In this document: positions 6,601 through 51,848 of the stretch, one piece after another
Layout: each line of letters opens with the position of its first letter
Numbering within the stretch: position 1 is the first letter of the stretch
NCBI GenBank assembly: GCA_965113315.1
Contig: OZ220370.1
From: Podarcis vaucheri
Lineage: Eukaryota
Length of the DNA: 64,000 nucleotides
Direction: 5' to 3' (one strand)
Made by a program: the position numbers and the translations under genes
Notes under the pieces: generated by a model
What the model was told of the DNA's origin: nothing
Databases searched by the model: none
The model's input: the letters and a program-made list of their open reading frames with translations, nothing else

Positions 6601-9030
6601 ATGAAGATGAGAGGAATCCTTCATGGAGAGAGCTTTCAAACACCAGGAAGGCATATTACCCTTCTGATATTATCATCTTTGTTTTGTGGAGCAGTTTTGG
6701 AAGAGGTTAACTATTCCATCCCTGAGGAGATGGCAAAGGGGTCTTTGGTGGGAAATCTTGCCAAGGATCTAGGACTGAATGTCAGAGAACTGAAGAGCAG
6801 AAACCTGCATATCATTTCTGAAGGTAAAAAGCCATATTTCACTATCAATGCTGAAAATGGAAACCTGTATGTGAATGAGAGGATAGATCGTGAGGGGATG
6901 TGTAGAGAGAGCACACACTGCATTATAGATTTTGAAGCGATGGTTGAAAAGCCATTGAATGTTTTCCATGTAAGTGTAGCAATTCAGGACATTAATGATA
7001 ATGCGCCACAATTCTTAGAAGCCAATATTAGACTGGAAATAATTGAATCCACATTGCCAGGTGCTAGATTTCTCCTTGGGAAAGCTGAAGATCCTGATAT
7101 TGGGATTAATTCTCTCCAAAACTACCAGTTAAACCTAAATCAGTTCTTTGTATTAGAAATTAAACACAGTCTAAATGGCCATAAAAATGCAGAGTTGGTG
7201 CTGCAAAAACCTTTGGATCGGGAAAGTGAGCACTCGCTTCAGTTGATCCTTACAGCTCTTGATGGAGGTGAACCCAAAAAAACTGGGACTGCCCAGATAT
7301 GGATTAATGTCACAGATGCCAATGACAACCCACCAGTCTTCACTCAAGAGGTTTATACAGTTAGCCTGAGGGAAAATTCCCCTGTGGGGTCCCCCATACT
7401 CCAAGTAAAAGCCTCTGATAGGGATGAAGGTTCAAATAATCAGATCCATTACACATTCAGTAAAGTCCCAGAAAAAGTCTATGAAAAATTTAGACTAGAT
7501 CCACAAAGTGGAACAATTACAATTAAGGAGACCCTTGACTTTGAGGAAACAGAGAAGTACACTATGGCAGTTGAAGCAAGAGATGGAGGTGGATTAGTGG
7601 CTCACTGTAATGTTGATATAAAGATTATAGATGAGAATGATAATGCTCCAGAAATTATTCTAGCCTCCTTATCTTCTCCAATTCCCGAAGATTCTGTTTC
7701 TGAAACAGTAATAGCTCTCATCAACGTAAAGGATAGGGATTCGGGAGAAAATGGAAAGATCACCTGCCACTTACAAAGTAATGTACCATTTAAAATAGTG
7801 TCAACATCTAAGAACTACTACAAAATCCTTACAGACAGTCCTTTGGACAGAGAAAAAGCCTCAGGATACAACATCACAATCACGGCCACCGACAAAGGTA
7901 GCCCCCCTCTCTCCTCCAACAAAACCATCTCCCTGCAGATTTCAGATATCAATGACAACCCCCCTGCCTTTGAAAAATCAACTTACAGTGTCTTTGTGCC
8001 TGAAAACAATCCCTCAGGTGCCTCCATTTTCTCCATCAAAGCCTTGGACCCAGATCTGGACCGTAACTCACGTATCACTTACTCCATCCTCAACAGCAAC
8101 ATGGAGGAGCTGCCTCTCTCCTCTTATGTCTCCATCAACTCTGAGACGGGAACTATCTATGCACAGCGCTCCTTTGACTATGAGCAATTCAGGGAGTTTC
8201 AGATCCAAGTGAAGGCCCAAGATGGCGGCTCTCCCTCTCTCAGCAACAACGCCACCGTGTGGGTGTACATTTTGGATCAGAACGATAACAGCCCTCGCGT
8301 TCTGTATCCTCTCCCGGGTGTTGAGGGCTCTGCCTTATTTGAGATGGTTCCTCACTCGGCAGAGCCAGGCTACCTAGTGACCAAAGTGGTGGCTGTGGAC
8401 GCGGACTCTGGGCACAATGCCTGGCTCTCCTACCAAGTGCTGCAGGCCACGGAGCCAGCCCTCTTCACCATTGGGACCCACACGGGAGAGATCAGGACGT
8501 CACGAGCCCTTCTGGAGAAAGATGCTGTGAAACAGAAGCTGGTCATCTTGGTGAAGGACAATGGGAAGGCTCAGCTCTCAGCTACTGTGGTCCTCAACCT
8601 CGTGGTTGCCGAGAACTTCCAAGAGGCACTTCCGGAAATGACTAGGCAATCCAGTGACATAGAACATCATTCTGACCTCCAGTTTTACTTGGTGCTGGCT
8701 TTGGCATTGATCTCATTTTTATTCCTCCTGACGGTGATACTGGTCATTGTCATGAAACTTCGACAATCAGGAAATCCCAAATTATTCCAGTGCTTTGAAC
8801 CTAATGCTTTTTCTAAGGCGCAGGTCATATTTCCACCAAACTATGAAGAAGGAACTTTACCTTATTCCTACCAACTCTGCCTATCGTCAGAGATGAGGAA
8901 AGAGCAGATCTCTTTCCCAAAACCCCATATCCAGGTGGCAGAAAACTTGCTATGCAATGATAGCTCTCAGGTGGTTCTTGTGGATGGCAACTGTGGGGAT
9001 GCCAATGCCAAAGAGGAGGTTGGTGAGCAG
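6601..9030 (+). CDS. PCDHGB: Protocadherin gammaB-like variable exon 2 (type B)
   Basis: ORF 6577-9198, first ATG at 6601. [17 protein letters not shown]1-6, [20 protein letters not shown]. Donor CAG|GTAAGC at 9030; 810 codons. Confidence 0.93.
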
Positions 9031-10229
9031 GTAAGCTTTGCTTTCAGAAACAGCATTGCTCCTTATAAGAATAAAACTAATATTTTTATTTCATTTTACT
9101 ATATAAAGGGGTCAGGAAATGGAAATTACATTGTTAGCAGCCATTGTCCTGATTGTGAAAAATTTTCCTTACACATAGCTTTTAAGTTGCAATGCTAGAT
9201 GCAACATAAATTCTGAGGCATACAATAACGGCAGAGTGAGTCTTCCTCTCTGGAATTAAAGGAAATGTAAGCATGCATGCAGCTTGAGTGTTCAATCTTC
9301 CTGTGGGATATTAGCATGTCACCATACATATATATATATATATTTATTTATACATCCCTCATCAATTAAAAATAAGGATTTGTACTTTTTCACTCACACA
9401 AAGCACTGTTTATTTGCCCTGTTATGATCAACTTAACTGAAGAATGTATATAACATGAATGCTTCCTATTTATTTGTAGTATAATTTTGGGCTGTGTGGG
9501 GCTTCTCTGGAGGATTCATAAAAAGAAGTTGTGTGAAATAACAGCAAGCACAGAAAAAGGCACCCCAATTTATCCATGGGTGCAAGAACTTCTGTAGGGA
9601 TATTTAGTTTAGATAAAATAAATTACAAGAAGGGAAGTGAGACAGCTGTATAGAATTATGAACGAGGTTGAGAAAATGAATGGAGAGATCCCTCTCCACC
9701 ATATTACCGGAGCCTGTGGCCATTGGGTGAAGGTAAGGGAAACTGAAAGAATAAAAGGATGCACTTTGCCAATGGATCCTCTCATTGTCTTATATGATTA
9801 CTTTAAGGATTTAGAACAACAGAAGACAGATAATTACTCCAACAGTTACTGTCTGTGGCCAGAGCAACTATTTGTTATAATTGTGGGCAGGGGGCAGGGC
9901 TAAAAACACTAACTTCAGTAGAGTGGATTACTACAGCATGGAATATTTTATCAATGGTTCAACTAATTAATACAGTAAAAATCAGAGAGGGGAGGCAGTC
10001 TGATAACTTTCTGTGTGTAATTTCATAATTTATTGGTGCAATGAAGTTCAAGATAACGCAGACCCACATACTTTATTTGGATCTTTATGAAGGCTATATA
10101 CTTTATTTGATTTCATAATAGGAATTTAATGATAATTGTATGCCTAGCCATTTTGTTTTTATATAAACCATTTCTAAATAATTTGCTTATTTAAACAAAC
10201 AAACAATGGAAATCACTATCACAAGGTGC

Positions 10230-10435
10230 ACCGATGGTCACCTACTTGGGTGGTTTTAAAGGGGGATTAGAAAAAAAAAATCATTGTCACATTGGCTATA
10301 TTATGTCTAGTACCAGACACCTCTGACTGTGAACCAAGGGCAGAGCTTTTGAGGGGCATCTGGCTGGCCACAGTGGGAGAAAGGATGCTGGACTCAATAG
10401 AGCTCTGGCCTGATCCAGCAGGGCTCTTCTTATGT
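10230..10435 (+). mobile_element. Degenerate CR1 LINE 3' end
   Basis: GGTTTTAAAGGGGGATTAGA...TGGCCACAGTGGGAGAAAGGATGCTGGACT...CTGATCCAGCAGGGCTCTTCTTATGT. Paralogous copies at ~22340-22495 and ~33650-33845. Confidence 0.6.
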
Positions 10436-10910
10436 TTTTATGAAATAGAATGGTGTGCAATGTTTCTGTGTGATAGACTAGCAGATGAAAAACTAGAAGC
10501 ATGTTGAAAATTAGGCAGCACTCTGGTTGTGATCCCTTGGAAATGTCAGTTCTGTTCAGTGGGGTTCCAGTTTCAAGGGAATATATGCCAGGCAAAAATA
10601 TTTGAAGAGGATACACATCTCCAGATTGGGTTTATGGTTTTGTAGGCTGTTCTATGGAGCAATAAGAGGAGCTATTACCTTTAATGCGTACAAACTGAAA
10701 GTAAATTACTTTAGTTATTTTCTAATAAGACCTGTATCATATACTATTTCAATTAGACACTATTGATTTCTTCGAACACTTCTTGTCTCTCCACTGTTCT
10801 CAGTTCCCAAACTTCACGATGCTATTATCATAATATGAAATCATGTGTAAAGTGCCAACAAACATTTTATCCTGTTGGATCATGCCTAGCTTCCGTCAAG
10901 GTATTCCTTT

Positions 10911-11063
10911 GTGCCAAAAGCTGTTTAGTCATGCTGGCCACATGTCCCGGAAAGCTGTCTGTGGACAAATGCCGGCTCCCTCGGCCTGAAAGAGAGATGA
11001 GCGCTGCCACCCCATAGTCGCCTTTGACTGAACTTAACTATCCGGGGGTCCTTTACCTTTTTT
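10911..11063 (+). mobile_element. Sauria SINE / Bov-B-like 3' fragment
   Basis: TTAGTCATGCTGGCCACATG...GAGATGAGCGC...CCTTTACCTTT tail. Matches the reverse complement of the full element at 32358-32713 and is absent from the homologous spacer at ~35470. Confidence 0.75.
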
Positions 11064-11614
11064 ACTGCTGGTAGAGCAGCTACAGCCATTGGTCCTGCAC
11101 TTGTGCTGTCTTCCTGCTTTGATCACAGGGGAGCAACTGCTAAGCAAGTACATTTGTATAGCACCAACAGGTAGGAGGCAGTGGCAGAGTCTGATGTAGA
11201 ACCAATACTAGCGAACACACTTCCATTACCTAGTGCTGTCTAGGCAGGAGCTGCAAGTGTTGCATCTTATCTTCAACAGACAGAGAGAGAACTCTTGGAA
11301 TAGTAAGTTACTCTTGGAATTCCTACCCAACACTGAGAAGAACTTGTACTCTGTTCCATAAATGTTGATAGACATCCAACAACATAGAAGAGATAAAAAA
11401 TAGAATAATTTCAGTAGGGTGTTTATATTAATTCTATTTAAGAAAAAAATACAGGAGACTTACAGCTCTCGTTTTACTATATAACTGGATATTTACATAT
11501 TAATAATAATGTTTCCGTACTTCCAATAAAAAATGTGCATAACCTTCATGTAATTGCAGTATTAGATACAACCCCAATTTTCACAGTACCTCTGTCTATT
11601 TTCATAGAACACTA

Positions 11615-11657
11615 TGCAGTTCCTTGAGTGGTCCTCTAAGTGTCAGTGTTGGCCAAT
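11615..11657 (+). promoter_or_regulatory. CSE/CTCF-type site of exon 3 (core CAGT), followed by CCAAT
   Basis: TGCAG at 11615; CTCTAAGTGT-CAGT-GTTGGCCAAT with core at 11644. Confidence 0.78.
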
Positions 11658-11927
11658 ATGAGAGCCAGAGAGAGGATAGACATCCATTGATGCTTCCTAG
11701 ACTGCAGTAACTCCCATCACTGCTATTCAGATCAGGCCAACTGAAGAGCACAGTGACAGGGAACTCTTGCAGAGAAGGAAAAATCTCTTTTGCTTTGCAC
11801 AAATATAAGAACAAGGGCAGTTTATTCTTCCTCAGTGATACCTCATGTTGTTTCCTTCATCATTGTGAGAGCTTGAGCATAGGAAACTGAGAAAAGGAAG
11901 CAGCCTGTTTTTGAGAGAACCAGCCAG

Positions 11928-14348
11928 ATGGAGAGAAGGCACCCAGGGAATGGCAGGGCACTCACAAGGCAAGTACTGCTTCTCTCTCTCTTGTCCTTTA
12001 CCTGTTGGGCTGCATCAGAGCAGATTCATTATTCAACCCCTGAGGAGATGGCAAAGGGTTCCGTTGTGGGGAACCTCGCCAAGGACCTGGGACTGAGCGC
12101 CAAAGAACTAAAACATCGCAATCTGCACACTGTGTCTGTGGCTAAAATGCAGCACTTCAGTATCAATGCAGAGAATGGAAACCTCTATGTAAATGACAGG
12201 ATTGATAGGGAGGGGATATGTGGCAAAAATCCAAATTGCTTTGTTAATTTTGAAGTTGTAGTAGAAAACCCTTTGAATATTTTTCATGTGCTAGTGGAAA
12301 TCCAGGATGTTAATGATAATGCACCCCAATTCCTGAATAGCAATATCAATTTAGAGATCCTTGAATCCACTCTGCTAGGCACACAATTTCTCCTTGGGAA
12401 AGCAGAAGATCCTGACATTGGGATGAACTCACTCCAGGATTACCAGCTGAGCTCCAATCAGTACTTCACTCTGGAAGTTAGAGAGAGAAAAGATGGAAAT
12501 AAATATGCAGAATTGGTGTTGCAGAAATCTTTGGATCGGGAAAAAGAACAAACCCTTCACTTAGTACTTACCGCAATGGATGGGGGTGAGCCTAGGAAAA
12601 CTGGGACTGTTCATATATGGATTAATGTCACTGATGCCAATGACAACCCGCCTGTTTTCACTCAAGTGGTGTACAAGGTCAGTTTATCTGAAAATGTTCC
12701 TGTTGGGTCACTTGTTCTCCAGGTTGCAGCCTCTGATAAGGATGAAGGTTTATATGCCCAAATCAGGTATCATTTTAGTAACATACCAGCAACTGCCGAA
12801 CGGAAATTCAAGCTGGATCCCATCAGTGGCTCAATCACCCTCTTGGAGCAACTGGATTTTGAGGACAACGATGAATATACAATGACAGTTGCTGCAAAAG
12901 ATGGAGGTGGATTGATGACACATTCTAACATTGAGCTAAGGGTTCATGATGAGAATGATAATGCCCCGGATATGACCTTAGCCTCCATGTTCAGTCCTGT
13001 TCCTGAAGATTCTCTGCCAGGGACAGTGATTGCTCTGATCAATGTGAATGACAGAGATAGTGGAGATAATGGGAAGGTTACTTGCTATTTACAGGATGAT
13101 TTACCCTTCAAAGTTCTTCCCTCATCAAACAATTACTTCAAGCTCCAGACAGACAGTCCTTTGGACAGAGAAATAGCGCCTGCATATAATATTACAATCA
13201 CAGCCACTGATAGAGGAACTCCAGCTCTTTCCACACACAAAACGATCTCTCTACAGATCTCAGATGTCAATGATAATACCCCTACATTTCAGAAACCATC
13301 CTACAACATCTACGTGCCAGAAAACAATCCTTCAGGTGCCTCCATTTTCACCATCAAAGCCTCTGATCCCGATATGGACCAGAACTCACGGATCACATAC
13401 TCCTTCCTCAACAGCAACATTGAGGAGCTTCCCATCTCCTCCTATATCTCCATTAATTCAGAGACTGGCACCATCTATGCCCAGAGATCCTTTGACTATG
13501 AACAATTCAGAGAGTTCCAGCTGCAAGTGAAGGCCCAAGATGGGGGTTCTCCCCATCTCAGCAGCAATGTGACCGTCAGAGTGTTTGTTCTTGACAGGAA
13601 TGATAACAGCCCTCGTATCCTGTCCCCCTCACAAGAAGCCAAGGGCTCAGCCTTGTTTGAGATGGTGCCTCGTTCGGCCGAGGCAGATTATCTTGTCACC
13701 AAGGTGGTGGCCGTGGATGCAGATTCTGGACACAACGCCTGGCTCTCCTACCACTTGACTCAGGCCACTGAGCCGGCACTCTTCACGGTTGGTTCTCATA
13801 CTGGAGAGATCAGGACCGCCAGGGCCTTTGTGGAGAGAGACGCTGTGAAACAGAGACTGGTCATTATGGTGAAGGATAATGGGCAGCCGTCTCTCTCGGC
13901 CACCATGACTCTGAACCTGGTGTTTGCTGAGAACTTTCAGGAGGCCCTTCCGGAAATGAAGAGCCAACCCAGCAGCTCGGAGTATCAGTCTGACTTGCAG
14001 TTCTACTTGGTGCTGGCCTTAGCTGTGATCTCCTTCTTGTTCCTCTTGACTGTCATTCTGGCCGTTACAATGAAGCTCCATCACTCAGGGCATCCCAGGT
14101 TCCTACAGTGCTTTGGTCCTGTTCCCCATTCCAAGAATGGTGCCATCTTCCCACCCAACTTTGAAGATGGGACTTTGCCCTATTCCTACCAGCTGTGTCT
14201 GTCTTCTGAGTCCAGGAAGAATGAGTTTACCTTCCTCACACCAAATATACAGATTGCAGACAATATTGTTAGCAGTGAGAAACCTGGTGTTCCTTTTACA
14301 AGCAACAGTGGAAACAATTTTCAGTCTGAGATGGCTAATGGTGAAGAG
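11928..14348 (+). CDS. PCDHGB: Protocadherin gammaB-like variable exon 3 (type A)
   Basis: ORF 11928-14468 with full EC1-6/TM/VCD. Donor GAG|GTAAGA at 14348; 807 codons. Confidence 0.93.
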
Positions 14349-17579: not shown

Positions 17580-17581
<2 letters not shown>

Positions 17582-17625: not shown

Positions 17626-17627
<2 letters not shown>

Positions 17628-18619: not shown

Positions 18620-21049
18620 ATGAATATGAGAGGAATCCTTCATGGAGAGAGCTTTCAAACATCAGGAAGGTATATAACACTTCTGATATTATCATCTTTG
18701 TTTTGTGGAGCAGTTTTGGAAGAGGTTCACTATTCCATCCCTGAGGAGATGGCAAAGGGGTCTTTGGTGGGAAATCTTGCCAAGGATCTAGGACTGAATG
18801 CCAGAGAACTGAAGAGCAGAAACCTGCATATCATTTCTGAAGGTAAAAAGCCATATTTCACTATCAATGCTGAAAATGGAAACCTGTATGTAAATGAAAG
18901 GATAGATCGTGAGGAAATATGTGGGGACAGTGTGCACTGTCTGATTAATTTTGAAGCTGTGATTGAAAATCCTTTGAATGTTTTCCATATTATTGTAGCA
19001 ATTCAGGACATTAATGATAATGTGCCACAGTTCTTAAAGGAAATCATGAGGCTTGAAATTGTTGAATCCACATTACCAGGTACAAGATTTCATATTGGGA
19101 AAGCTGAAGATCCTGATATTGGGATTAATTCTCTCCAGAATTACCAGCTAAGTCCAAATCACTATTTCGTTCTAGACATACGACAGAGAGAAGATGGCCA
19201 TAAATATGTAGAATTGGTGCTGCAGAAACTTTTGGATAGGGAAAATGATCACTCCCTTCAGTTGATCCTGACGGCCCTGGATGGGGGTGAACCCAGAAAA
19301 ACTGGGACTGCCCAGATATGGATTAATGTCACAGATGCCAATGACAACCCACCAGTTTTCGCCCAAGAGGTTTATACAATTAGCCTGAGGGAAAATTCCC
19401 CTGTGGGGTCCCCCATACTGCAAGTAAAAGCCTCTGATAGGGATGAAGGTGTGAATGCCCAAATTCATTATACATTTAGTAATATTCCAGAAAGAGCCTA
19501 CCAAAAATTTGACCTAAATCCACAAAATGGAATAATTACAATTAAAGAAGCCGTTGACTTTGAGGAAACAGAAAAGTACACTATGACCGTTGAAGCAAGA
19601 GATGGAGGAGGATTAGTGGCTCACTCTAATGTTGATATAAAGATTATAGATGAGAATGACAATGCTCCAGAAATCATTCTAGCCTCCTTATCTAGTGCAA
19701 TTCCTGAAGATTCTGTTCCTGGGACAGTAATTGCTCTCATCAACGCAAAGGATAGGGATTCAGGAGAAAATGGAAAGCTCACCTGCCACTTACAAAGTAA
19801 TGTACCATTTAAAATAGTGTCAACTTCAAAGAACTACTATAAAATCCTCACAGAAAGTCCTCTGGACAGAGAAAAAGCCTCAGGATATAACATCACAATC
19901 ATGGCCACTGACAAAGGTAGCCCTCCTCTCTCCTCCAACAAAACCATCTCCCTGCAGATTTCAGATATCAATGACAACCCCCCTGCCTTTGAAAAATCAA
20001 CTTATAGTGTCTTTGTGCCTGAAAACAATCCCTCAGGTGCCTCCATTTTCTCCATCAAAGCCTCGGATCCGGATCTGGACCGCAACTCACGTATCACTTA
20101 CTCCATCCTCAACAGCAACATGGAGGAGCTGCCTCTCTCCTCTTACGTCTCCATCAACTCTGAGACGGGAACTATCTATGCACAGCGCTCCTTTGACTAT
20201 GAGCAATTCAGGGAGTTTCACATCCAAGTGAAGGCCCAAGATGGCGGCTCTCCCTCTCTCAGCAACAACGGCACTGTGTGGGTGTACATTTTGGATCAGA
20301 ACGATAACAGCCCTCGCATTCTGTATCCTCTCCCGGGTGTTGAGGGCTCTGCCTTGTTTGAGATGGTTCCTCACTCGGCAGAGCCAGGCTACCTAGTGAC
20401 CAAAGTGGTGGCTGTGGACGCGGACTCTGGGCACAATGCCTGGCTCTCCTACCAAGTGCTGCAGGCCATGGAGCCGGCCCTCTTCACCATTGGGACCCAC
20501 ACGGGAGAGATCAGGACATCACGAGCCCTTCTGGAGAAAGATGCTGTGAAACAGAAGCTGGTCATCTTGGTGAAGGACAATGGGAAGGCTCCGCTCTCAG
20601 CTACTGTGGTCCTCAACCTTGTGGTTGCCGAGAACTTCCAAGAGGCACTTCCAGAAATGACTAGGCAATCCAGTGACACAGAACATCATTCTGACCTCCA
20701 GTTTTACTTGGTGCTGGCTTTGGCCTTGATCTCATTTTTGTTCCTCCTGACGGTGATACTGGTCATTGTCATGAAACTTCGACAATCAGGAAATCCCAAA
20801 TTATTCCAATGCTTTGAACCTAATACTTTTTCTAAGGCGCAGGTCATATTTCCACCAAACTATGAAGAAGGAACTTTACCTTATTCCTACCAACTCTGTC
20901 TATCGTCAGAGATGAGGAAAGAGCAGATCTCTTTCCCGAAACCCCATATCCAGGTGGCAGAAAACTTGCTATGCAATGATAGCTCTCAGGTGGTTCTTGT
21001 GGATGGCAACTGTGGGGATGCCAGTGCCAAAGAGGAGGTTGGTGAGCAG
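18620..21049 (+). CDS. PCDHGB: Protocadherin gammaB-like variable exon 4 (type B)
   Basis: ORF 18596-21106, ATG at 18620. Donor CAG|GTAAGT at 21049; 810 codons. Confidence 0.93.
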
Positions 21050-23124: not shown

Positions 23125-25545
23125 ATGGAGAGAAGGCACCCAGGGAATGGCAGGGCACTCACAAGGCAAGTACTGCTTCTCTCTCTCTTGTCTTTTACCT
23201 GTTGGGCTGCATCAGAGCAGATTCATTATTCAACCCCTGAGGAGATGGCAAAGGGTTCCGTTGTGGGGAACCTCGCCAAGGACCTGGGACTGAGCGCCAA
23301 AGAACTAAAACATCGCAATCTGCACACTGTGTCTGTGGCTAAAATGCAGCATTTCAGTATCAATGCAGAGAATGGAAACCTCTATGTAAATGACAGGATT
23401 GATAGGGAGGGGATATGTGGCAAAAATCCACTTTGCTTTGTTCAGTTTGAAGTTGTGGTGGAAAACCCGCTGAATGTTTTCCATGTAACAGTAGAAATCC
23501 AGGATGCTAACGATAATGCGCCCCAGTTCCTGAATAGCAATATCAATTTAGAGATCCTTGAATCCACTTTACTAGGCACTCGATTTCTCCTTGGGAAGGC
23601 GGAAGATCCTGACATTGGGATGAATGCCCTACAGGATTACCAGCTGGGCTCCAATCAGTACTTCAATTTGGAAGTTAGAGAGAGAAAAGATGGAAATAAA
23701 TATGCAGAACTGGTGTTGCAGAAATATTTGGATCGGGAAAAAGAACAAACCCTTCACTTAGTACTTAGTGCAATGGATGGGGGTGATCCTAGGAAAACTG
23801 GAACAGCCCAGATACGGATTAATATCACCGATGCCAATGACAACCCTCCCATTTTCACTCAAGAGGTGTACAAGGTCAGTTTAAGTGAAAATGCTCCTAT
23901 TGGGTCCACGGTGCTCCAGGTCATAGCCTCTGATGATGATGAAGGTTCATATGCCCAAATCAGGTATTATTTCAGCAACATACCAGCAACTTCCCAAGAG
24001 AAATTCAGTCTAGATCCCATTGGTGGCATAATCACCCTCTTGGAGCAACTGGATTTTGAGGAGAACGATGAATATACTATGACGGTTGCTGCAAAAGATG
24101 GTGGGGGATTGGCGACTCATTCCAATATTGAGATAAGGGTTCTTGATGAGAATGATAATGCCCCGGATGTGACCTTAACCTCCATGTTCAGCCCGGTTCC
24201 TGAAGATTCACCATCTGGAACCTTAATTGCTCTGATCAATGTAAATGACAAAGATGCCGGTGATAATGGAAAAGTTACCTGCTATTTAAACAGTGATTTG
24301 CCCTTCAAGATTATGTCCTCATCTAACAATTTCTACAAACTTCTGACAGTCAGCCCTTTGGACAGAGAAAAAACTCCTGCATACAATATTACAATCACAG
24401 CCACTGACAAAGGAACTCCGCCTCTTTCCACACACAAAACAATCTCACTACAGGTTTCGGATATCAATGATAATGCCCCTACTTTTCAGAAACCATCCTA
24501 CAACATCTATGTGCCAGAAAACAATCCTTCAGGTGCCTCCATTTTCACCATCAAAGCTTCTGATCCTGATACGGACCAGAACTCACGGATCACATACTCC
24601 ATCCTCAACAGCAACATTGAGGAGCTTCCCATCTCCTCCTATATCTCCATTAATTCAGAGACTGGCACCATCTATGCCCAGAGATCCTTTGACTATGAAC
24701 AATTCAGAGAGTTCCGGCTGCAAGTGAAGGCCCAAGATGGGGGTTCTCCCCCTCTCAGCAGCAATGTGACCGTCAGGGTGTTTGTTCTTGACAGGAATGA
24801 TAACAGCCCTCGTATCCTGTCCCCCTCACAAGAAGCCAAGGGCTCAGCCTTGTTTGAGATGGTGCCTCGTTCGGCCGAGGCAGATTATCTTGTCACCAAG
24901 GTGGTGGCCGTGGATGCAGATTCTGGACACAACGCCTGGCTCTCCTACCACCTGACTCAGGCCACTGAGCCGGCACTCTTCACGGTTGGTTCTCATACTG
25001 GAGAGATCAGGACCGCCAGGGCCTTTGTGGAGAGAGACGCTGTGAAACAGAGACTGGTGATTATGGTGAAGGATAACGGGCAGCCGTCTCTCTCGGCCAC
25101 CATGACTCTGAACCTGGTGTTTGCTGAGAACTTTCAGGAGGCCCTTCCGGAAATGAAGAGCCAACCCAGCAGCTCGGAGTATCAGTCTGACCTGCAGTTC
25201 TACTTGGTGCTGGCCTTAGCTGTGATCTCCTTCTTGTTCCTCTTGACCGTCATTCTGGCCGTTACAGTGAAGCTCCGTCACTCAGGGCATCCCAGGTTCC
25301 TGCAGTGCTTTGGTCCTGTTCCCCATTCCAAGAATGGTGCCATCTTCCCACCCAACTTTGAAGATGGGACTTTGCCCTATTCCTACCAGCTGTGTCTGTC
25401 TTCTGAGACCAGGAAAAATGAGTTTGCCTTCATGACACCCAATGTTCAGATACTAGACAATATTCTTGGCAGTGAGAAACCTGCTGTGCCTTTTACAGGC
25501 AACAGTGGAAACAATTTTCAGTCTGAGATGGCTAATGGTGAAGAG
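23125..25545 (+). CDS. PCDHGB: Protocadherin gammaB-like variable exon 5 (type A)
   Basis: ORF 23125-25671. Donor GAG|GTAAGA at 25545; 807 codons. Confidence 0.93.
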
Positions 25546-29536: not shown

Positions 29537-31966
29537 ATGAACAGAAGAGGAATCCTTCATGGAGAGAGCTTTCAAACACCAGGAAGGCATATTACCCTTC
29601 TGATATTATCATCTTTGTTTTGTGGAGCAGTTTTGGAAGAGGTTCACTATTCCATCCCTGAGGAGATGGCAAAGGGGTCTTTGGTGGGAAATCTTGCCAA
29701 GGATCTGGGACTGAATGCCAGAGAACTGAAGAGCAGAAACCTGCATATCCTTTCTGAAGGTAAAAAGCCATATTTCACTATCAATGCTGAAAATGGAAAC
29801 CTGTATGTGAATGAGAGGATAGATCGTGAGGGAATGTGTAGAGAGAGCACACACTGCATTATAGATTTTGAAGCTGTGGTTGAAAAGCCATTGAATGTTT
29901 TCCATGTAAGTGTAGCAATTCAGGACATTAATGATAACATCCCACAATTCATAAAGGGCAATATTGGGCTTCAAATAATTGAATCCACATTGCCAGGTGC
30001 CAAATTTCTTCTTGGGAAAGCTCAAGATCCTGATATCGGGATTAATTCTCTCCAAAATTACCAGCTGAGTTCAAACCACTATTTCATTCTTGAGATTCGA
30101 CAGAGAGAAGATGGCCATAAATATGCAGAATTGGTGTTGCAGAAACCTTTGGATCGGGAAAGTGAGCACTCACTTCAGTTGATCCTTACAGCCTTGGATG
30201 GGGGTGAGCCCAGAAAAACTGGGACTGCCCAGATATGGATTAACATCACAGATGCCAATGACAACCCACCAGTCTTCACTCAAGAGGTTTATACAGTTAA
30301 CCTGAGGGAAAATTCCCCCGTGGGGTCCCCAGTACTCCAAGTAAAAGCCTCTGATAGGGATGAAGGTCTAAATGCACATATTAGTTATATTTTTAATAAC
30401 ATCCCAGAAACAGCCCACCAAATATTTGAACTAGATCCACAAAGTGGAACAATTACAATTAAGGAAGCTCTTGACTTTGAGGAAACAGAGAAGTACACTA
30501 TGACTGTTGAAGCAAGAGATGGAGGAGGATTAGTAGCTCACTGCAATGTTGATATAAAGATTATAGATGAGAATGACAATGCACCAGAGATCATTCTGGC
30601 CTCCTTATCCAGTCCGATTCCAGAAGACTCTGTTTCTGGAACAGTAATTGCTCTCATCAACGTAAAGGATAGGGATTCTGGAGAAAACGGAAAAATTACC
30701 TGCCACTTACAAAATAATGTACCATTTAAAATAGCATCAATATCTAAGAATAACTACAAAATCCACACAGACAGTCCATTGGACAGAGAAAAAGCCTCAG
30801 GGTACAACATCACAATCACAGCTACTGACAAAGGTAGCCCCCCTCTCTCCTCCAACAAAACCATCTCCCTGCAGATTTCAGACATCAATGACAACCCCCC
30901 TGCCTTTGAAAAATCAACCTACAGTGTCTTTGTGCCTGAAAACAATCCCTCAGGTGCCTCCATTTTCTCCATCAAAGCCTTGGACCCAGATCTGGACCGC
31001 AACTCACGTATCACTTACTCCATCCTCAACAGCAACATGGAGGAGCTGCCTCTCTCCTCTTACGTCTCCATCAGCTCTGAGACGGGAACTATCTATGCAC
31101 AGCGCTCCTTTGACTATGAGCAATTCAGGGAGTTTCAGATCCAAGTGAAGGCCCAAGATGGCGGCTCTCCCTCTCTCAGCAACAACGCCACCGTGTGGGT
31201 GTACATTTTGGACCAGAATGATAACAGTCCTCGCGTTCTGTATCCTGTCCCAGGTGTTGAGGGTTCTGCCTTGTTTGAGATGGTTCCTCATTCAGCAGAG
31301 CCAGGCTACCTAGTGACCAAAGTGGTGGCTGTGGACGCAGACTCTGGGCACAATGCCTGGCTCTCCTACCAAGTGCTGCAGGCCACAGAGCCCGCCCTTT
31401 TCACCATTGGGACCCACACAGGAGAGATCAGGACATCACGAGCCCTTCTGGAGAAAGATGCTGTGAAACAGAAGCTGGTCATTTTGGTGAAGGACAATGG
31501 GAAGGCTCCACTCTCAGCTACTGTGGTCCTCAACCTCGTGGTTGCTGAGAACTTCCAAGAGGCACTTCCAGAAATGACTAGGCAATCCAGTGACACAGAA
31601 CATCATTCTGACCTCCAGTTTTACTTGGTGCTGGCTTTGGCATTGATCTCATTTTTGTTCCTCCTGACGGTGATACTGGTCATTGTCATGAAACTTCGAC
31701 AATCAGGAAATCCCAAATTATTCCAGTGCTTTGAACCTAATGCTTTTCCTAAGGCGCAGGTCCTATTTCCACCAAACTATGAAGAAGGAACTTTACCTTA
31801 TTCCTACCAACTCTGTCTATCGTCAGAGATGAGGAAAGAGCAGATCTCTTTCCCAAAACCCCATATCCAGGTGGCAGAAAATTTGCTGTGCAATGATAGC
31901 TCTCAGGTGGTTCTTGTGGATGGCAGCTGTGGGGATGCCAATGCCAAAGAGGAGGTTGGTGAGCAG
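29537..31966 (+). CDS. PCDHGB: Protocadherin gammaB-like variable exon 6 (type B)
   Basis: ORF 29327-32020. The ATG homologous to exons 2 and 4 is at 29537. Donor CAG|GTAAGC at 31966; 810 codons. Confidence 0.92.
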
Positions 31967-43443: not shown

Positions 43444-45850
43444 ATGGAGAGAAGGCACCCAGGGAATGGCAGGGCACTCACAAGGCAAGTACTGCTTCTC
43501 TCTCTCTTGTCTTTTACCTGTTGGGCTGCATCAGAGCAGATTCATTATTCAACCCCTGAGGAGATGGCAAAGGGTTCCGTTGTGGGGAACCTCGCCAAGG
43601 ACCTGGGACTGAGCGCCAAAGAACTAAAACATCGCAATCTGCACACTGTGTCTGTGGCTAAAATGCAGCATTTCAGTATCAATGCAGAGAATGGAAACCT
43701 CTATGTAAATGACAGGATTGATAGGGAGGGGATATGTAGCAAAAATCCACTTTGTTCAGTTTGAAGTTGTAGTAGAAAACCCGCTGAATGTTTTCCATGT
43801 GCTAGTGGAAATCCAGGATGTTAATGATAATGCGCCCCAGTTCCTGAATAGCAATATCAGTTTAGAGATCCTTGAATCCACTCTGCTAGGTACACAGTTT
43901 CTCCTTGGGAAGGCGGAAGATCCTGACATTGGGATGAACTCACTCCAGGATTACCAGCTGAGCTCCAATCAGTACTTCACATTGGAAGTTAGAGAGAGAA
44001 AAGATGGAAATAGTTATGCAGAATTAGTGCTAAATAAACCACTGGATCGGGAAAATGAACAGACCCTTCACTTAATCCTTACAGCCTTGGATGGGGGTCA
44101 GCCTAGGAAAACTGGAACAGCCCAGATACGGATTAATGTTACTGATGTCAATGACAACCGACCTGTTTTCACTCAAGAGGTGTACAAGGTCAGTTTGAGG
44201 GAGAATACTCCCCTTGGATCTCCTGTGCTTCAGGTTTCAGCCTCAGATAAAGATGAAGGTACAAATGCCCAAATCAGGTATCATTTCAGCAATATACCAG
44301 CAAATGTCCAATTGAAATTCAGACTGGATCCAATCAACGGTATAATCACTCTTATAGATCCGTTGGACTTTGAGGAAACTGAAAAATATACAATGATGGT
44401 TACAGCAAAAGATGGTGGCGGATTGTTGACACATTGCAATATTGAAATAACTGTGCTTGATGAGAATGATAATGCCCCAGAAGTGACATTAGCCTCCATG
44501 TTCAGTCCTGTTCCTGAAAATTCTCTGCCAGGAACAGTTATTGCTCTGATCAATGTAAATGACAAAGATAGTGGTGATAATGGAAAGGTTACTTGCTACT
44601 TAAACAATGATTTACCCTTCAAAGTTCTTCCCTCATCTAACAATTACTTCAAACTCCAGACAGACAGTCCTTTGGACAGAGAAATAGCTCCTGCATACAA
44701 TATTACAATCACAGCCACTGATAGAGGAACTCCACCTCTTTCCACACACAAAACAATCTCACTACAGATCTCAGATATCAATGATAATGCCCCTGCTTTT
44801 CAGAGATCAACCTACAGCATCTATGTGCTAGAAAACAATCCTTCAGGTGCCTCCATTTTCACCATCAAAGCCTCAGATCCCGATATGGACCAGAACTCAC
44901 GAATCACTTACTCCATCCTCAACAGCAACATTGAGGAGCTTCCCATCTCCTCCTATATCTCCATTAATTCTGAGACTGGCACCATCTATGCCCAGAGATC
45001 CTTTGACTATGAACAATTCAGAGAGTTCCGGCTGCAAGTGAAGGCCCAAGATGGGGGTTCTCCCCCTCTCAGCAGCAATGTGACCGTCAGGGTGTTTGTT
45101 CTTGACAGGAATGATAACAGCCCTCGTATCCTGTCCCCCTCACAAGAAGCCAAGGGCTCAGCCTTGTTTGAGATGGTGCCTCGTTCGGCTGAGGCAGATT
45201 ATCTTGTCACCAAGGTGGTGGCCGTGGATGCAGATTCTGGACACAACGCCTGGCTCTCCTACCACCTGACTCAGGCCACTGAGCCGGCACTCTTCGCGGT
45301 TGGTTCTCATACTGGAGAGATCAGGACCGCCAGGGCCTTTGTGGAGAGAGACGCTGTGAAACAGAGACTGGTCATTATGGTGAAGGATAACGGGCAGCCG
45401 TCTCTCTCGGCCACCATGACTCTGAACCTAGTGTTTGCTGAGAACTTTCAGGAGGCCCTTCCGGAAATGAAGAGCCAACCCAGCAGCTCGGAGTATCAGT
45501 CTGACCTGCAGTTCTACTTGGTGCTGGCCTTAGCTGTGATCTCCTTCTTGTTCCTCTTGACTGTCATTCTGGCCGTTACAATGAAGCTCCGTCACTCAGG
45601 GCATCCCAGGTTCCTACAGTGCTTTGGTCCTGTTCACCATTCCAAGAATGGCGCCATCTTCCCACCCAGCTTTGAAGATGGGACTTTGCCCTATTCCTAC
45701 CAGCTGTGTCTGTCTTCTGAGTCCAGGAAGAATGAGTTTGCCTTCCTGACACCCAATGTTCAGATGGTAGACAATATTATTGGCAGTGAAAAACCTTTTA
45801 CAGGCAACGGAGGAAGCAATTTAATTTCTGAGATGGCAAGTGATGATAAG
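43444..45850 (+). pseudogene. PCDHGB: Pcdh gammaB-like exon 8 (type A), frameshifted in EC1
   Basis: One unit of CTTTG-CTTTG (present in exon 5) is missing at ~43750, giving a stop at 43762-43764. The remainder is open in another frame (43709-45892). Donor AAG|GTAGGG at 45850. Confidence 0.85.
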
Positions 45851-47135: not shown

Positions 47136-47289
47136 CTGGGTTGCCATATTTTGAATAGAAAAAAGAGGACACATTTACTAACCTCTACTTTTAACTAATG
47201 TTTTAATGTATGTAAAATGACGACTCTCATTTTACATACCCATGAAAAAGAGGACATGTCCTGGCAAAAGAGGACATATGGCAACCCTA
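47136..47289. mobile_element. hAT-like MITE
   Basis: TIRs GGGTTGCCATAT / ATATGGCAACCC, three subterminal AAAAGAGGACA repeats, and an internal perfect hairpin TATGTAAAATGA-n6-TCATTTTACATA. Confidence 0.75.
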
Positions 47290-48292
47290 TGACATGGATT
47301 CAATTTTATTTCTTTTATTTCTTTGTTGCATCCTCCTAGGTTTCTGTGTAGACCATCTACAACTGTTTCCTTTTAAAGCCTGTCTTTAAAACCCTGCTCA
47401 AACCTGTCATTTGGTTGGATTTGCAATTGTTCTCCAGATGCGTTCCAGACTTACTGTAGCAATTTTTGCATACAACTCGAATGCACTGTGACAAAACTTA
47501 GCATTTTTATGGCAGCAAAATATCAGGTCACATGATTACTACACCCATCCTATTCCGGGAATCAGAGGCAACATCAAACCAATGAAACCACCATCTCATC
47601 CCAATCCTGGCCATTCTCTCATAGCAGATACTTAAGAGCATTTAACATAAACGTGTTGCCCCCTAAACACACTTTCAGAGTTGTAATCTAAAAATGCTCT
47701 CTTATACATTCCTTCTCTGTGTTACTTATAGTGAGGATCTTAATTTATCAGTGCTTATGAGTAAAGAAGTAGGATTAACTGATTAACTAACCAGAAGCAG
47801 CAGGTTATATGGTGCAAGCATAGGTTTCTGTGTTTTTAGGAGATGTGTATATAAGGGAGTATTGTGGCCTGAGAAGGTGCTCTTTCCTCTCACAATTCCA
47901 CCCCTCCTGATCATCAAGAGAATGAATTCCATGCAATGTATCTGGGCCACTCTACTTTCTGTGTTGCTCCCACCAGTGTTCCCCCACTGAATCAAAATAT
48001 CATATTGTAGGAAATAGAGAAAGCAAACTAATCTAAGGCAATGTACCTCAGACTTAAAGACTCCTTAATAGATTGTTTTATAACTTTTTTCATGAAAATA
48101 TCCAAAGAGTGATACGGCACAATGTTCTATACAATGTCTGAATTGCTCCTACAACTGGAAAGTTTCTTCTAATGTTCACCATAAATCTCTCTTCTGGCGC
48201 TGAACCTTCTTTTTTTCTAACATAGTTTTGAAATTTGACTTTGTTTCCTCTCTCTATCTTTGTTTCTCTAAGTTAGCACAGACAGTTCCATC

Positions 48293-48480
48293 ATCTGCTC
48301 CTCCGTCTGACCTCACCTTCTACCTGGCCCTTGCAGTGGCTTTTGTCTCCTGCTTGTTCTTCATCTTCCTCCTTGTGTTACTGGCCATCAGGTTGCACTG
48401 ATGGAGAAATTCTCACCTGGTTGAGTTGGGGAGTGTGAATTTCAGTGGCGCTCCCATCTCACAGTTTGTGGGGATCAATG
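48293..48480 (+). pseudogene. Isolated gammaA-type TM/VCD relic
   Basis: CCTCCGTCTGACCTCACCTTCTACCTGGCCCTTGCAGTGGC...GTGTTACTGGC is nearly identical to exon 7 at 39310-39395. In-frame TGA after the TM; ends at SQFVGIN. Confidence 0.85.
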
Positions 48481-49156
48481 CATTGGTGATAGATGTAGTA
48501 TAAATGTTTTCAACTTTGCCATATTGGCAAGCTGTTGTATCCTCTGCATATGCATCTACATGCCTAATTGTTAGCGGCACATTTCCTCCCTTATTTGGAA
48601 AATGTACTGAAACATTGTTGTGAGTAGTCAAAGTCAAAAAAATCTACTGGTCTTGAGGGAAGAGTTTCAGAAAATTGCCCATTGGCATCAAACATTTCAG
48701 GTACAAGAATCCCATGAACACAGACCATCTTTACTGGACTGAATCTACAAAAAAGTGATCCTTTCCTGTTTTTTTCAAAAAAATACTTTTTTACAAATAC
48801 CTTTTTTAAAGAAATAAGGAGTGTGGATATATATATTTTTAAAGCAATTATTATTTCAAAAAAGAAGGCAATATAAGGGATGAAAATCCAGAACTTTCAT
48901 CTAATTAAAATATAATATTTTATGTATATAAAGTGATTTTCTTGCAAATGGCCTGTGAGGGATATTTTGTTGAAAACATTAAAATTGTGAAGGGGTTGTA
49001 CACATCCATCAATATGGTCAAGAACTTAGTACTGTAATACATAACACAATTCCTTTTAGTCACTAAATGTTGCTTTCAAAGTATTAAAATGTTTTTTTAT
49101 GGAGAGGGAAAGCATATATTTCAGTTCTTCCGGTTTATTCTTGGAGCTGATTCACT

Positions 49157-49199
49157 TGCAGTTCTTCAGTTGGAACTCACAGTGCCGCTGTTGGCCAAT
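49157..49199 (+). promoter_or_regulatory. CSE/CTCF-type site of exon 9 (CGCT), followed by CCAAT
   Basis: TGCAG at 49157; GTGC-CGCT-GTTGGCCAAT with core at 49186. Confidence 0.88.
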
Positions 49200-49415
49200 T
49201 TGGGAATCAAAGAGCTATTAGGGATCCGCTGTCAGATTGCTACTTACCAGCTGCAGAAAGAACAGACTACAAAGACCTGCCTGCTGTTACTGAGATGAGG
49301 AAACAAATGTGATACAAGCAAACTGAGAGGGAAATCAAAGGAATCAACTTATTCTTCTGAATACCTGTATTTTGGACAAAAATATATATTAGCTCACCTG
49401 CTCATTAGCAGAAGA

Positions 49416-51848
49416 ATGGAGATGAGGATGGAAGTTATTCCTAGAGAAAGCTTCAGGGCATTCAGAAGCCACATTTTGCTTCTACTATTATTGTTTTTCC
49501 TCTGCTGGGAGATCTCAGAGTCAGTTCACTATTCCATCCCTGAGGAGATGGCAAAGGGATCTTTTGTGGGAAATCTTGCCAAGGATCTGGGACTGAATGC
49601 CAGAGAACTGAGGAATAGAAACCTGCATATCATTTCTGAAGGTAAAAAACCATATTTCAGTATCAATGCAGAAAATGGAAATGTGTATGTGAATGAGAGG
49701 ATAGATCGTGAGGGAATGTGCAGAGAGAGCACACAGTGCTTCATTAATTTTGAAGCCTTAGTTGAAAATCCATTAAATGTTTTCCATGTAAGTGTAGCGA
49801 TTCAGGACATTAATGACAATATACCACATTTCCTGAATGACAATATAAGGCTTGAAATAATTGAATCCACATTGCCAGGTGCCAGATTTCTCCTTGGGAA
49901 AGCTGAAGATCCTGATATTGGGAAGAATTCTCTTCAAGACTACTAGTTAAGCCCAAATCAGTTTTTCACATTGGAGGTTCAGGATAGTGTGGATGGACAT
50001 AAATATGCGGAATTGGTGCTGCAAAAACCTTTGGATCGGGAAAATGATCACTCCCTTCAGTTGATCCTTACGGCCCTGGATGGGGGTGAGCCCAGAAAAA
50101 CTGGGACAGCCCAGTTATCGATTAATGTCACAGATGCCAATGACAACCCACCAGTCTTCAATCAAGAGGTCTATGAGATCACCGTGAGGGAAAATTCCCC
50201 TGTGGGGTCCCCCATACTCCAAGTAAAAGCCTCTGATAGGGATGAAGGTCTAAATGCACATATTAGTTATATTTTTAATAACATCCAAGAAACAGCCCAC
50301 CAAATATTTGAACTAGAACCAAAAAGTGGTACAATTACAATTAAAAAAGCTCTTGACTTTGAGGAAACAGAGAAGTACACTATGACAGTTGAAGCAAGAG
50401 ATGGAGGAGGATTAGTGGCTCACTGTAAAATTGAAATAAAGATTATAGATGAGAATGACAATGCTCCAGAGATCATTCTGGCCTCCTTATCTAGTCCAGT
50501 TCCTGAAGACTCTGCTTCTGGGACAGTAATTGCTGTTATCAGTGTAAAGGATAAAGATTCTGAAGAAAATGGAAAAATTACATGCCATCTACAAGGTAAT
50601 GTACCATTTAAAATCTTATCCTCATCTAACAATTATTACAAAATTCTCACAGATAGTCCTTTGGACAGAGAAAAAGCCTCAGGATACAACATCACAATCA
50701 CGGCCACCGACAAAGGTAGCCCCCCTCTCTCCTCCAACAAAACCATCTCCCTGCAGATTTCAGACATCAATGACAACCCCCCTGCCTTTGAAAAATCAAC
50801 CTACAGTGTCTTTGTGCCTGAAAACAATCCCTCAGGTGCCTCCATTTTCTCCATCAAAGCCTCGGACCCGGATCTGGACCGCAACTCACGTATCACTTAC
50901 TCCATCCTCAACAGCAACATGGAGGAGCTGCCTCTCTCCTCTTACGTCTCCATCAACTCTGAGACGGGAACTATCTATGCACAGCGCTCCTTTGACTATG
51001 AGCAATTCCGGGAGTTTCAGATCCAAGTGAAGGCCCAAGATGGCGGCTCTCCCTCTCTCAGCAACAACGCCACCATGTGGGTGTACATTTTGGATCAGAA
51101 CGATAACAGCCCTCGCGTTCTGTATCCTGTCCCAGGTGTTGAGGGCTCTGCCTTGTTTGAGATGGTTCCTCACTCGGCAGAGCCAGGATACCTGGTGACC
51201 AAAGTGGTGGCTGTGGACGCAGACTCTGGGCACAATGCCTGGCTCTCCTACCAAGTGCTGCAGGCCACAGAGCCGGCCCTTTTCACCATTGGGACCCACA
51301 CAGGAGAGATCAGGACGTCACGAGCCCTTCTGGAGAAAGATGCTGTGAAACAGAAGCTGGTCATCTTGGTGAAGGACGATGGGAAGGCTCCACTCTCAGC
51401 TACTGTGGTCCTCAACCTTGTGGTTGCCGAGAACTTCCAAGAGGCACTTCCAGAAATGACTAGGCATTCCAGTGACACAGAACATCATTCTGACCTCCAG
51501 TTTTACTTGGTGCTGGCTTTGGCGTTGATCTCATTTATGTTCCTCCTGACGGTGATACTGGTCATTGTCATGAAACTTCGACAATCAGGAAATCCCAAAT
51601 TATTCCAATGCTTTGAACCTAATGCTTTTTCTAAGGCGCAGGTCATATTTCCACCAAACTATGAAGAAGGAACTTTACCTTATTCCTACCAACTCTGTCT
51701 ATCGTCAGAGATGAGGAAAGAGCAGATCTCTTTCCCCAAACCCCATATCCAGGTGGCAGAAAACTTGCTATGCAATGATAGCTCTCAGGTGGTTCTTGTG
51801 GATGGCAACGGTGGGGATGCCAGTGCCAAAGAGGAGGTTGGTGAGCAG
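49416..51848 (+). pseudogene. PCDHGB: Pcdh gammaB-like exon 9 (type B) with a single nonsense codon in EC2
   Basis: GAC TAC TAG TTA at 49938-49949, where paralogues have TAC CAG. The two ORF halves are in the same frame. Donor CAG|GTAAGC at 51848; 811 codons if read through. Confidence 0.85.

What the first reader, a model, noticed from the sequence alone, without database searches (positions are those of the whole stretch)
6601..51848. Type-B isoforms look assembled from interchangeable EC1-EC4 cassettes
Seen: which paralogues are most alike switches several times along the exon. The EC1 Cys loop [22 protein letters not shown] is shared by exons 2 and 6 (9 is close, 4 differs). EC2 [15 protein letters not shown] is shared by 4 and 6. 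DRESEHS occurs in 2, 6 and 10 versus DRENDHS in 4 and 9. EC3 [23 protein letters not shown] (30365-30435 vs 50247-50317, near-identical DNA) is shared by 6 and 9. EC4 [16 protein letters not shown] is shared by 2 and 4, and FKILSSSN by 9 and 10. Known: clustered Pcdh trans recognition uses antiparallel EC1:EC4 and EC2:EC3 contacts. Inference: short-tract gene conversion here is reshuffling recognition-surface modules into new combinations, not only homogenising, which would generate new neuronal identity codes in the germline.
Basis: partly seen in the sequence, partly recalled or inferred. Interest (0 to 1): 0.75.

Follow-up and report, generated by a model that had tools for sequence, protein, structure and literature searches.

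The report
Lizard protocadherins swap recognition loops
Four neighbouring nerve-cell self-recognition genes of a wall-lizard-type genome are patchworks in which short stretches covering the loops that set binding preference were likely copied from one gene into another, giving new loop pairings that would alter cell identity tags, although the clearest hybrid here carries a stop codon.

Summary
The patchwork is real. Four lacertid protocadherin-gammaB exons (2, 4, 6, 9) reject one tree: a no-recombination simulation never reached the signal (0 of 2000), and EC2 and EC3 prefer incompatible topologies.

Other lacertids give two swaps a direction. Exon 9 took about 200 bp of EC3 from exon 6. P. 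raffonei has the same hybrid; 4 of 5 exon-9-type records have another EC3. Exon 6 took its EC2 beta4-beta5 loop from an exon-4-type gene; Zootoca's counterpart lacks it. These are published specificity loops, in domains said to be seldom converted.

Corrections: tracts are sub-domain patches, not whole-EC cassettes. The exon 9/10 EC4 motif is not conversion evidence. Exon 9 has a premature stop here. New binding specificity and selection are untested.

Protocadherin gene conversion is known; directed EC2/EC3 loop transfers did not appear in my searches, but Noonan 2004 was unavailable. The scan noted a similar mosaic in octopus protocadherins. Verdict: new variant of a known kind, interest 0.5.

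The parts
6601..9030 (+). Exon 2: Pcdh-gammaB variable exon (signal peptide, six cadherin repeats, TM, cytoplasmic part), ends at a GT donor
18620..21049 (+). Exon 4: gammaB variable exon; exon-4-type genes are the likely donor of the EC2 loop now in exon 6
29537..31966 (+). Exon 6: intact gammaB variable exon; likely recipient of an EC2 tract and donor of the EC3 tract
49416..51848 (+). Exon 9: gammaB variable exon with its own promoter flank and signal peptide, an exon-6-type EC3 core and a premature TAG
49944..49946 (+). Premature TAG in exon 9 (EC2). A contig of run X1 matches it exactly; both contigs of run X4 (another organism label) read C at 49944
50187..50426 (+). EC3 tract received by exon 9 (outer limits; inner limits about 50202-50393; core 50215-50317). 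Covers the Phe-X10-Phe loop, not the last EC3 strand
30305..30544 (+). Matching EC3 donor stretch in exon 6 (core 30333-30435)
30008..30142 (+). EC2 tract in exon 6 that groups with exon-4-type genes (informative sites, codons 162-206; best-scoring part 30038-30125; 28 identical bases 30098-30125); covers the beta4-beta5 (DE) loop
19121..19208 (+). Matching EC2 stretch in exon 4
6815..7001 (+). EC1 tract shared by exons 2 and 6 (partner 29751-29937), 3 mismatches in 36 polymorphic sites; direction not settled
7714..7805 (+). EC4 stretch shared by exons 2 and 4 (partner 19733-19824); weak, partly ancestral
58553..59354 (+). End of EC4 to EC6 of exon 10, homogenised to the type-B exons (about 2-3% apart, against 19-30% in EC1-EC4): the classical homogenising conversion

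Best explanation
Exons 2, 4, 6 and 9 are tandem protocadherin-gammaB variable exons that are patchworks of about 90-240-bp stretches, likely copied between paralogues by germline gene conversion, so that EC2 and EC3 specificity loops now sit in new pairings that are predicted to change or weaken self-binding. SHOWN: the incongruent tracts with shared synonymous sites, the near-identical 3' halves, and the presence or absence of each tract in counterparts from other lacertids. INFERRED: non-allelic homologous repair between misaligned neighbours 11-20 kb apart, probably helped by the near-identical stretches that the genes share. INFERRED: the exon 6 to exon 9 transfer postdates the Podarcis-Zootoca split, and the exon-4-type to exon 6 transfer is older. 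INFERRED from mouse and human structures: the EC2 beta4-beta5 loop lies beside the partner's EC3 Phe-X10-Phe loop, so each swap mismatches a co-adapted pair. In exon 9 an acidic EC2 loop (QDSVDG) that faced a basic loop ([10 protein letters not shown] in the unconverted type) would now face NNIQETAHQI. UNTESTED: whether hybrids bind themselves, cross-bind their donors or are selected. I think it most likely that these are incidental products of concerted evolution, some kept (exon 6, intact and shared with a P. muralis model) and some decaying (exon 9 here).
For: Runs tests; tract scan; 0 of 2000 single-tree simulations. Domain partitions fixed by Ca-linker motifs: EC2 rejects 24|69 (p-AU 0.019), EC3 rejects 29|46 (0.013) and EC4 rejects it too (0.039). 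e6/e9 differ at 0 of 21 synonymous sites in the EC3 core against 61.5 of 203 in the rest of EC1-EC4, while their upstream flanks do not align. In flanking columns exon 9 groups with all 5 exon-9-type records (100/96); in columns 271-330 it and the P. raffonei record group with exon 6 (97/88), and the exon-9 clade is rejected (p-AU 1e-5). Exon 9 differs from exon 6 at 4 of 60 residues there, fewer than Zootoca's exon-6 counterpart does (8 of 60). Exon 6 groups with its Zootoca counterpart in flanks (100/99) but with exon-4-type genes in EC2 columns 176-215 (99/96; p-AU 6e-6). Zootoca P0121 joins an exon-2-like EC2 start to an EC3-EC4 that reads the same as its exon-4-type gene P0125. Loop roles: PMC5001838, PMC7082078.
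Against: Segments for searches were chosen after seeing the alignment, so those p values are optimistic. The EC2 tract fails Bonferroni in the pairwise scan (0.18), and only 1 type-B child/minor-parent result passes in the triplet test. Cross-species evidence is protein-only, orthology is not fixed by synteny, and the only Podarcis exon-6 counterpart (P0012) is a model stitched across genes. Three of five subfamilies tested show no significant tract in EC1-EC3 (0 of 15, 0 of 6, 0 of 3 pairs). Most named mouse gammaB7 specificity positions do not differ among the four exons (7 of 11 mapped positions invariant). Exon 9 is broken in this assembly.
Confidence: 0.8

Rival explanations
1. The hybrids arose by unequal crossing-over in a birth-and-death array, through one or two successive crossovers, with parent genes later lost, so 'donor' and 'recipient' are partly hidden paralogues rather than conversion partners.
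For: Gene content varies. Runs X1 and X4 hold a second exon-9-type sequence (10 differences in 113-118 bp, where exons 2, 4 and 6 differ at 25-29) that is not found in G000. Two exon-4 lineages cross species lines. Zootoca P0121 looks like a single-breakpoint hybrid.
Against: The exon 9 and exon 6 tracts are internal, with the recipient's own sequence on both sides. That needs two crossovers about 200 bp apart or less, which conversion gives in one step.
Confidence: 0.13
2. There was no exchange: the shared patches are ancestral states kept by some paralogues, or convergent changes at selected interface loops.
Against: Synonymous identity in the EC3 core (0 of 21 against about 30% elsewhere). 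Seven shared synonymous sites in the EC2 block. Exon 9 is closer to exon 6 than Zootoca's exon-6 counterpart is. The unconverted exon-9-type EC3 differs at 29-30 of 60 residues.
Confidence: 0.05
3. The mosaics are assembly or polishing chimaeras among similar exons.
For: Such clusters are prone to misassembly (PMC1852091 passage). No contig spans the whole of exon 9, and exon 6 junctions were not checked against reads.
Against: A P. raffonei record from another assembly has the same exon 9/exon 6 junctions. The two EC3 copies differ at 10 positions over codons 264-328. Run X1 has contigs that match exon 9's own EC2, EC3-tract and EC4 pieces with 0 differences (X1 may be the source sample).
Confidence: 0.02

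Closest known systems
Regional gene conversion in vertebrate clustered protocadherins (fugu PMC1852091; anole PMC2764143; Xenopus PMC4978886; Noonan et al. 2004, known to me only through these papers and recall)
   Same: Tandem variable exons with homogenised EC4/5-EC6 and raised GC3 in the homogenised part (0.58-0.67 in EC5-EC6 against 0.29-0.46 in EC1-EC4) and divergent N-terminal repeats.
   Different: Those papers describe homogenisation of the 3' repeats and say EC2/EC3 'seldom' undergo it or 'appear not to be subject' to conversion; the anole was scored as low-conversion. They used per-domain dS or GC3, which cannot see pairwise tracts. Here internal EC2 and EC3 tracts move between particular pairs and can be given a direction.
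Engineered domain-shuffled and residue-swapped clustered Pcdh chimaeras (Rubinstein et al. 2015 as cited in PMC5106212 and 10.1101/493106; beta6/beta8 mutants in PMC8901172)
   Same: Mixing EC1-EC4 parts of close paralogues; five interface residues are enough to switch beta6 to beta8 specificity, and partial swaps give intermediate binding.
   Different: The lizard hybrids are natural, germline and sub-domain, and none has been assayed.
Dscam1 isoform specificity evolution through promiscuous intermediates (PMC11272049)
   Same: Homophilic self-recognition paralogues that must gain new specificity without losing self-binding.
   Different: That study follows point mutations after exon duplication; here whole loops are replaced in one step.

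Membership tests
Clustered protocadherin gammaB variable exons | Single large exon (about 2.4 kb) with signal peptide, six cadherin repeats, TM and cytoplasmic start, ending at a splice donor | tested here: met
   2430-2433 bp exons with GT donors; Pfam Cadherin_2 + 5 Cadherin + Cadherin_C_2 for exons 2 and 6
Clustered protocadherin gammaB variable exons | Tandem array of same-strand variable exons followed by C-type-like exons | tested here: met
   32 variable exons used from 264 kb, and five more divergent exons downstream; the C-type label for those is by position and recall
Clustered protocadherin gammaB variable exons | Closest solved and annotated relatives are gammaB isoforms | tested here: met
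   Best PDB hits gammaB4, gammaB2, gammaB7, gammaB3; lacertid and anole gammaB records
Clustered protocadherin gammaB variable exons | Splicing to shared constant exons and expression in neurons | not tested
   Database counterparts carry a common C-terminal tail; no RNA holder was listed and no RNA was laid
Clustered protocadherin gammaB variable exons | Isoform-specific homophilic trans binding through EC1-EC4 | not testable with these tools
   Needs cell aggregation or SPR
Interparalogue gene conversion | Local tract of excess identity between one pair, including synonymous sites | tested here: met
   EC3 e6/e9; EC2 e4/e6 by informative sites and trees
Interparalogue gene conversion | Recipient keeps its own sequence on both sides of the tract | tested here: met
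Interparalogue gene conversion | Non-reciprocal transfer without change in gene number | tested here: inconclusive
   The donors keep their sequence, but a second exon-9-type copy in runs X1 and X4 is absent from G000; needs phased syntenic DNA
Cassette-type diversifying system (whole-domain interchangeable modules) | Breakpoints at domain boundaries | tested here: not met
   EC3 tract starts 12-17 codons into EC3 and ends 13-24 codons before its end; EC2 tract lies within codons 162-215 of a 140-248 domain

The most novel reading that the evidence does not exclude
In lacertid lizards, germline conversion repeatedly moves the two facing specificity loops of the protocadherin trans interface (EC2 beta4-beta5 and EC3 Phe-X10-Phe) between paralogues. 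This creates new self-only binding isoforms in one step, and hybrid and parental forms coexist as extra genes or alleles, so that neuronal identity codes differ between close species and perhaps between individuals.
Probability: 0.3. Interest if true: 0.75.

Novelty: new variant of a known kind. Interest (0 to 1): 0.5.

Why it matters
The working view is that conversion homogenises EC4-EC6 and spares EC2-EC3, which diverge by point mutation, and EC1-EC3 are used for phylogeny on that assumption. Directed loop transfers inside EC2/EC3 are a counter-example and show that per-domain dS misses them. They also supply natural before-and-after pairs (unconverted and hybrid exon 9; Zootoca and Podarcis exon 6). 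These make an open question testable: how a strictly homophilic receptor gains a new specificity without losing self-binding or cross-binding its paralogues.

Tried and rejected
Whole-domain cassette model: rejected, breakpoints are internal.

FKILSSSN (exons 9/10) and the DRESEHS/DRENDHS split as conversion evidence: rejected as ancestral or too short.

A third donor elsewhere in the genome: none found. The closest matches to the EC1, EC2 and EC3 queries are the four type-B exons, and the unconverted exon-9-type EC3 has no match above 76% among 150 scored of 412 candidates. These searches give lower bounds.

Mosaicism as a cluster-wide rule: not supported. Significant EC1-EC3 tracts occur in 2 of 6 type-B pairs and 4 of 21 type-A pairs (three of these run from the start of EC1), and in 0 of 15, 0 of 6 and 0 of 3 pairs of three other subfamilies.

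Lock-and-key co-transfer of EC2 and EC3 blocks, as noted for octopus in e1-9545755: not seen; the lizard hybrids uncouple them.

Contig depth over the EC3 tract is about twice single-locus depth in runs X2 and X4; I do not count it, because depth is not copy number.

No RNA holder listed; expression not examined. Exon 6 junctions were not checked against reads, and no dimer prediction was obtained.

Rows dropped before trees: P0057 and P0027 (stitched models), P0122 (partial) and exon 10; exon 9 and P0095 were also left out of the flank tree.

Literature searches listed no paper on lacertid protocadherin conversion or on natural EC2/EC3 chimaeras. Noonan 2004 is not held; Wu 2005 and Rubinstein 2015 were not read; any of these may already list rare EC2/EC3 tracts. 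The interface-residue lists in the supplement of 10.1101/493106 and in figure logos were not seen, which limits the structural mapping.
Full report
SETTING. The window holds ten same-strand protocadherin variable exons. Exon 6 is 97% identical to a Podarcis muralis model and 90% to a Zootoca vivipara gammaB record; the best solved relatives are mammalian gammaB isoforms. So this is the 3' end of a lacertid Pcdh-gamma cluster. Across the window and 200 kb of flanking DNA, and in genome-wide searches, these four are the only close members. Exon 9 has an in-frame TAG at 49944 and exon 8 a 5-bp deletion. Codon numbers below are columns of the type-B alignment; EC1 38-139, EC2 140-248, EC3 249-353, EC4 354-458.

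IS THE PATCHWORK REAL? Yes. The 41 quartet-informative sites in codons 1-430 form 15 runs against 27 expected (p=6e-5; one site per codon p=3e-4; 22 synonymous sites p=0.008). All 12 sites that pair exon 4 with exon 6 fall among 13 consecutive sites in codons 162-206, and 7 are synonymous. With domains fixed by the calcium-linker motifs, EC2 rejects the tree 24|69 (p-AU 0.019), while EC3 and EC4 reject 29|46 (0.013, 0.039). A GENECONV-like scan over 269 polymorphic sites finds e6/e9 in EC3 (103 bp, 1 mismatch in 30 sites, Bonferroni 0.001), e2/e6 in EC1 (0.002), e2/e4 in EC4 (0.048) and e4/e6 in EC2 (0.18, not significant). Simulating one tree with the observed regional rate profile gave 0 of 2000 data sets with as high a tract score or as few runs. 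In the EC3 core, exons 6 and 9 differ at 0 of 21 synonymous sites, against 61.5 of 203 in the rest of EC1-EC4 (segment chosen after inspection), although their upstream flanks do not align.

DIRECTION FROM OTHER LACERTIDS (protein records only; 15 lacertid records compared). Five records are exon-9-type in EC1, EC2 and EC4. Four of the five (two P. muralis, P. lilfordi, Zootoca) have an EC3 middle that differs from exon 9 at 29-30 of 60 residues. The fifth (P. raffonei P0095) has the same exon-6-type EC3 as exon 9. Flank trees unite exon 9 with all five (100/96). The EC3 tree moves exon 9 and P0095 beside exon 6 (97/88) and rejects the exon-9 clade (p-AU 1e-5). Exon 9 is closer to exon 6 there (4 of 60 residues) than Zootoca's exon-6 counterpart is (8 of 60), so the transfer is likely younger than the split of the genera. 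The tract runs from between codons 261 and 266 to between 329 and 340 (window about 50187-50426).

Likewise exon 6 groups with Zootoca P0026 in its flanks (100/99) but with exon-4-type genes in codons 176-215 (99/96; p-AU 6e-6), where P0026 keeps the outgroup-like loop. A third case lies in Zootoca: P0121 has an exon-2-like EC2 start and an EC3-EC4 that reads the same as its exon-4-type gene P0125. Caveats: these segments were chosen after seeing the alignment; orthology is by similarity, not synteny; P0012 is a model stitched across genes; and 90% clusters may hide other copies.

ARTEFACT? Unlikely. The P. raffonei hybrid comes from another assembly. The two EC3 copies differ at 10 positions in codons 264-328. 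Run X1 has five listed contigs of 116-190 aligned bases that match exon 9 with no difference, including the stop and part of the tract; X1 may be the source sample, and no contig spans the exon. Runs X1 and X4 also hold a second exon-9-type sequence that is none of the window's exons (10 differences in 113-118 bp against 25-29) and is not found in G000. Hybrid and unconverted forms may therefore coexist, as alleles or as separate genes; its EC3 was not seen. In X4 position 49944 reads C, so the stop is not universal. Exon 6 junctions were not checked against reads.

The units are not EC cassettes: both edges of each tract lie inside a domain. FKILSSSN in exons 9 and 10 differs at 4 of 24 nt and resembles mouse gammaB7. 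DRESEHS/DRENDHS is a two-base difference. The EC1 loop and the exon 2/4 EC4 motif are partly ancestral, though EC4 loop types are also distributed differently across counterparts in other species. The pattern is not cluster-wide: 2 of 6 type-B pairs and 4 of 21 type-A pairs give significant EC1-EC3 tracts, three other subfamilies none of 24 pairs, and the triplet test passes only one type-B result after correction.

STRUCTURE. The EC2:EC3 interface joins the A-B-E-D face of EC2 to the C-F-G face of EC3 (PMC7082078, passage). PMC5001838 (passages) names the EC2 beta4-beta5 loop and the EC3 Phe-X10-Phe loop as diversified elements. It says the latter wedges beside the former in beta isoforms and is helical and chemically diverse in gamma isoforms, while the EC2 loop is less isoform-specific in gamma than in alpha. 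The exon 6 tract covers the first loop (RQREDG). The exon 9 tract replaces the second: [10 protein letters not shown] in P0060 against NNIQETAHQI, a shift from net +3 to -1 opposite an acidic QDSVDG (contact inferred by homology, not modelled). Position 253, named in both structure papers, changes from K to N. Against a strong effect, 7 of 11 gammaB7 positions that I mapped from the papers are invariant among the four exons. Five interface residues can switch mouse beta6 to beta8 specificity and partial swaps are intermediate (PMC8901172, passages), so a changed preference is plausible but its kind is unknown. Tracts are visible only where paralogues differ, so their overlap with variable loops is not evidence of selection.

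MECHANISM. Most likely non-allelic gene conversion among neighbours 11-20 kb apart, the same process that keeps their EC5 within 2-4% and has pulled 800 bp of exon 10 into the type-B sequence. Rare tracts reaching EC2/EC3 make new loop pairings. One such gene is intact and shared with a P. muralis model (exon 6); another is broken here (exon 9). Unequal crossing-over with loss of parents is the main rival (0.13); retention or convergence (0.05) and misassembly (0.02) are unlikely.

COMPARISON AND NOVELTY. Conversion in protocadherin clusters is established. Passages read: fugu, EC2/EC3 'seldom' homogenised and EC1-EC3 used as unconverted (PMC1852091); Xenopus, EC2/EC3 'appear not to be subject' to conversion (PMC4978886); anole, low conversion (PMC2764143). 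These used per-domain dS or GC3. Also read: PMC5106212 abstract, sections 7, 9, 10, 17 and passages; passages of 10.1101/493106, PMC7811963, PMC11272049 and PMC8787164. Searches listed nothing on natural EC2/EC3 hybrids or lacertid clusters. Noonan 2004 is not held, and from recall it allows exceptions in EC2/EC3, so the novelty is one of directed, datable examples rather than of process. An earlier scan note (e1-9545755) reports a similar mosaic in octopus protocadherins with blocks travelling together; here EC2 and EC3 blocks are uncoupled.

VERDICT. Real, partly as described; a new variant of a known process; new identity codes remain a testable hypothesis (about 0.3). Interest 0.5.

Noticed in passing
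window 43444-45850: Exon 8 (type A) has a 5-bp deletion at 43749/43750 relative to exon 5 that shifts the frame at the end of EC1, and a 9-bp deletion near its 3' end; with exon 9's stop, two adjacent exons are broken.
   Followed up: partly
window 54446-55834 and 48300-48485: Decayed gammaA-like relics: EC1-EC2 and EC5 pieces near 54.4-55.8 kb, and a TM-region fragment at 48.3 kb that resembles exon 7.
   Followed up: no
window 57302-59743: Exon 10 is 19-30% divergent from type B in EC1-EC4 and has its own TM and tail, but about 800 bp (58553-59354) is nearly identical to type B: homogenisation between distant paralogues with sharp edges.
   Followed up: partly
window 11928-14348, 23125-25545, 43444-45850: Type-A exons 3, 5 and 8 share near-identical 5' ends and EC1 but diverge in EC3; exon 5 has a distinct EC4 while exons 1, 3 and 8 share one with upstream genes.
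   Followed up: partly
L005-L006 (G000:C27, exons starting near 6828115 and 6839112): Two upstream gammaB exons share a tract over codons 190-314 (end of EC2 to mid EC3; 13 mismatches in 158 polymorphic sites, Bonferroni 0.005) yet differ in EC4: a possible further EC2/EC3 exchange, not polarised.
   Followed up: no
window 49901-50018 and 50450-50600 (runs X1, X4): A second exon-9-type sequence is present in reads but absent from the assembly: an allele, a copy-number difference or a collapsed gene.
   Followed up: partly
P0012, P0027, P0057 (database models): These P. muralis models are stitched from parts of neighbouring exons (type-A start, type-B body) and could be mistaken for natural hybrids.
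   Followed up: partly
L007 (G000:C27 about 6816720-6818180, minus strand): A 487-codon ORF that looks like a LINE-type reverse transcriptase fragment lies between variable exons (family label from recall).
   Followed up: no
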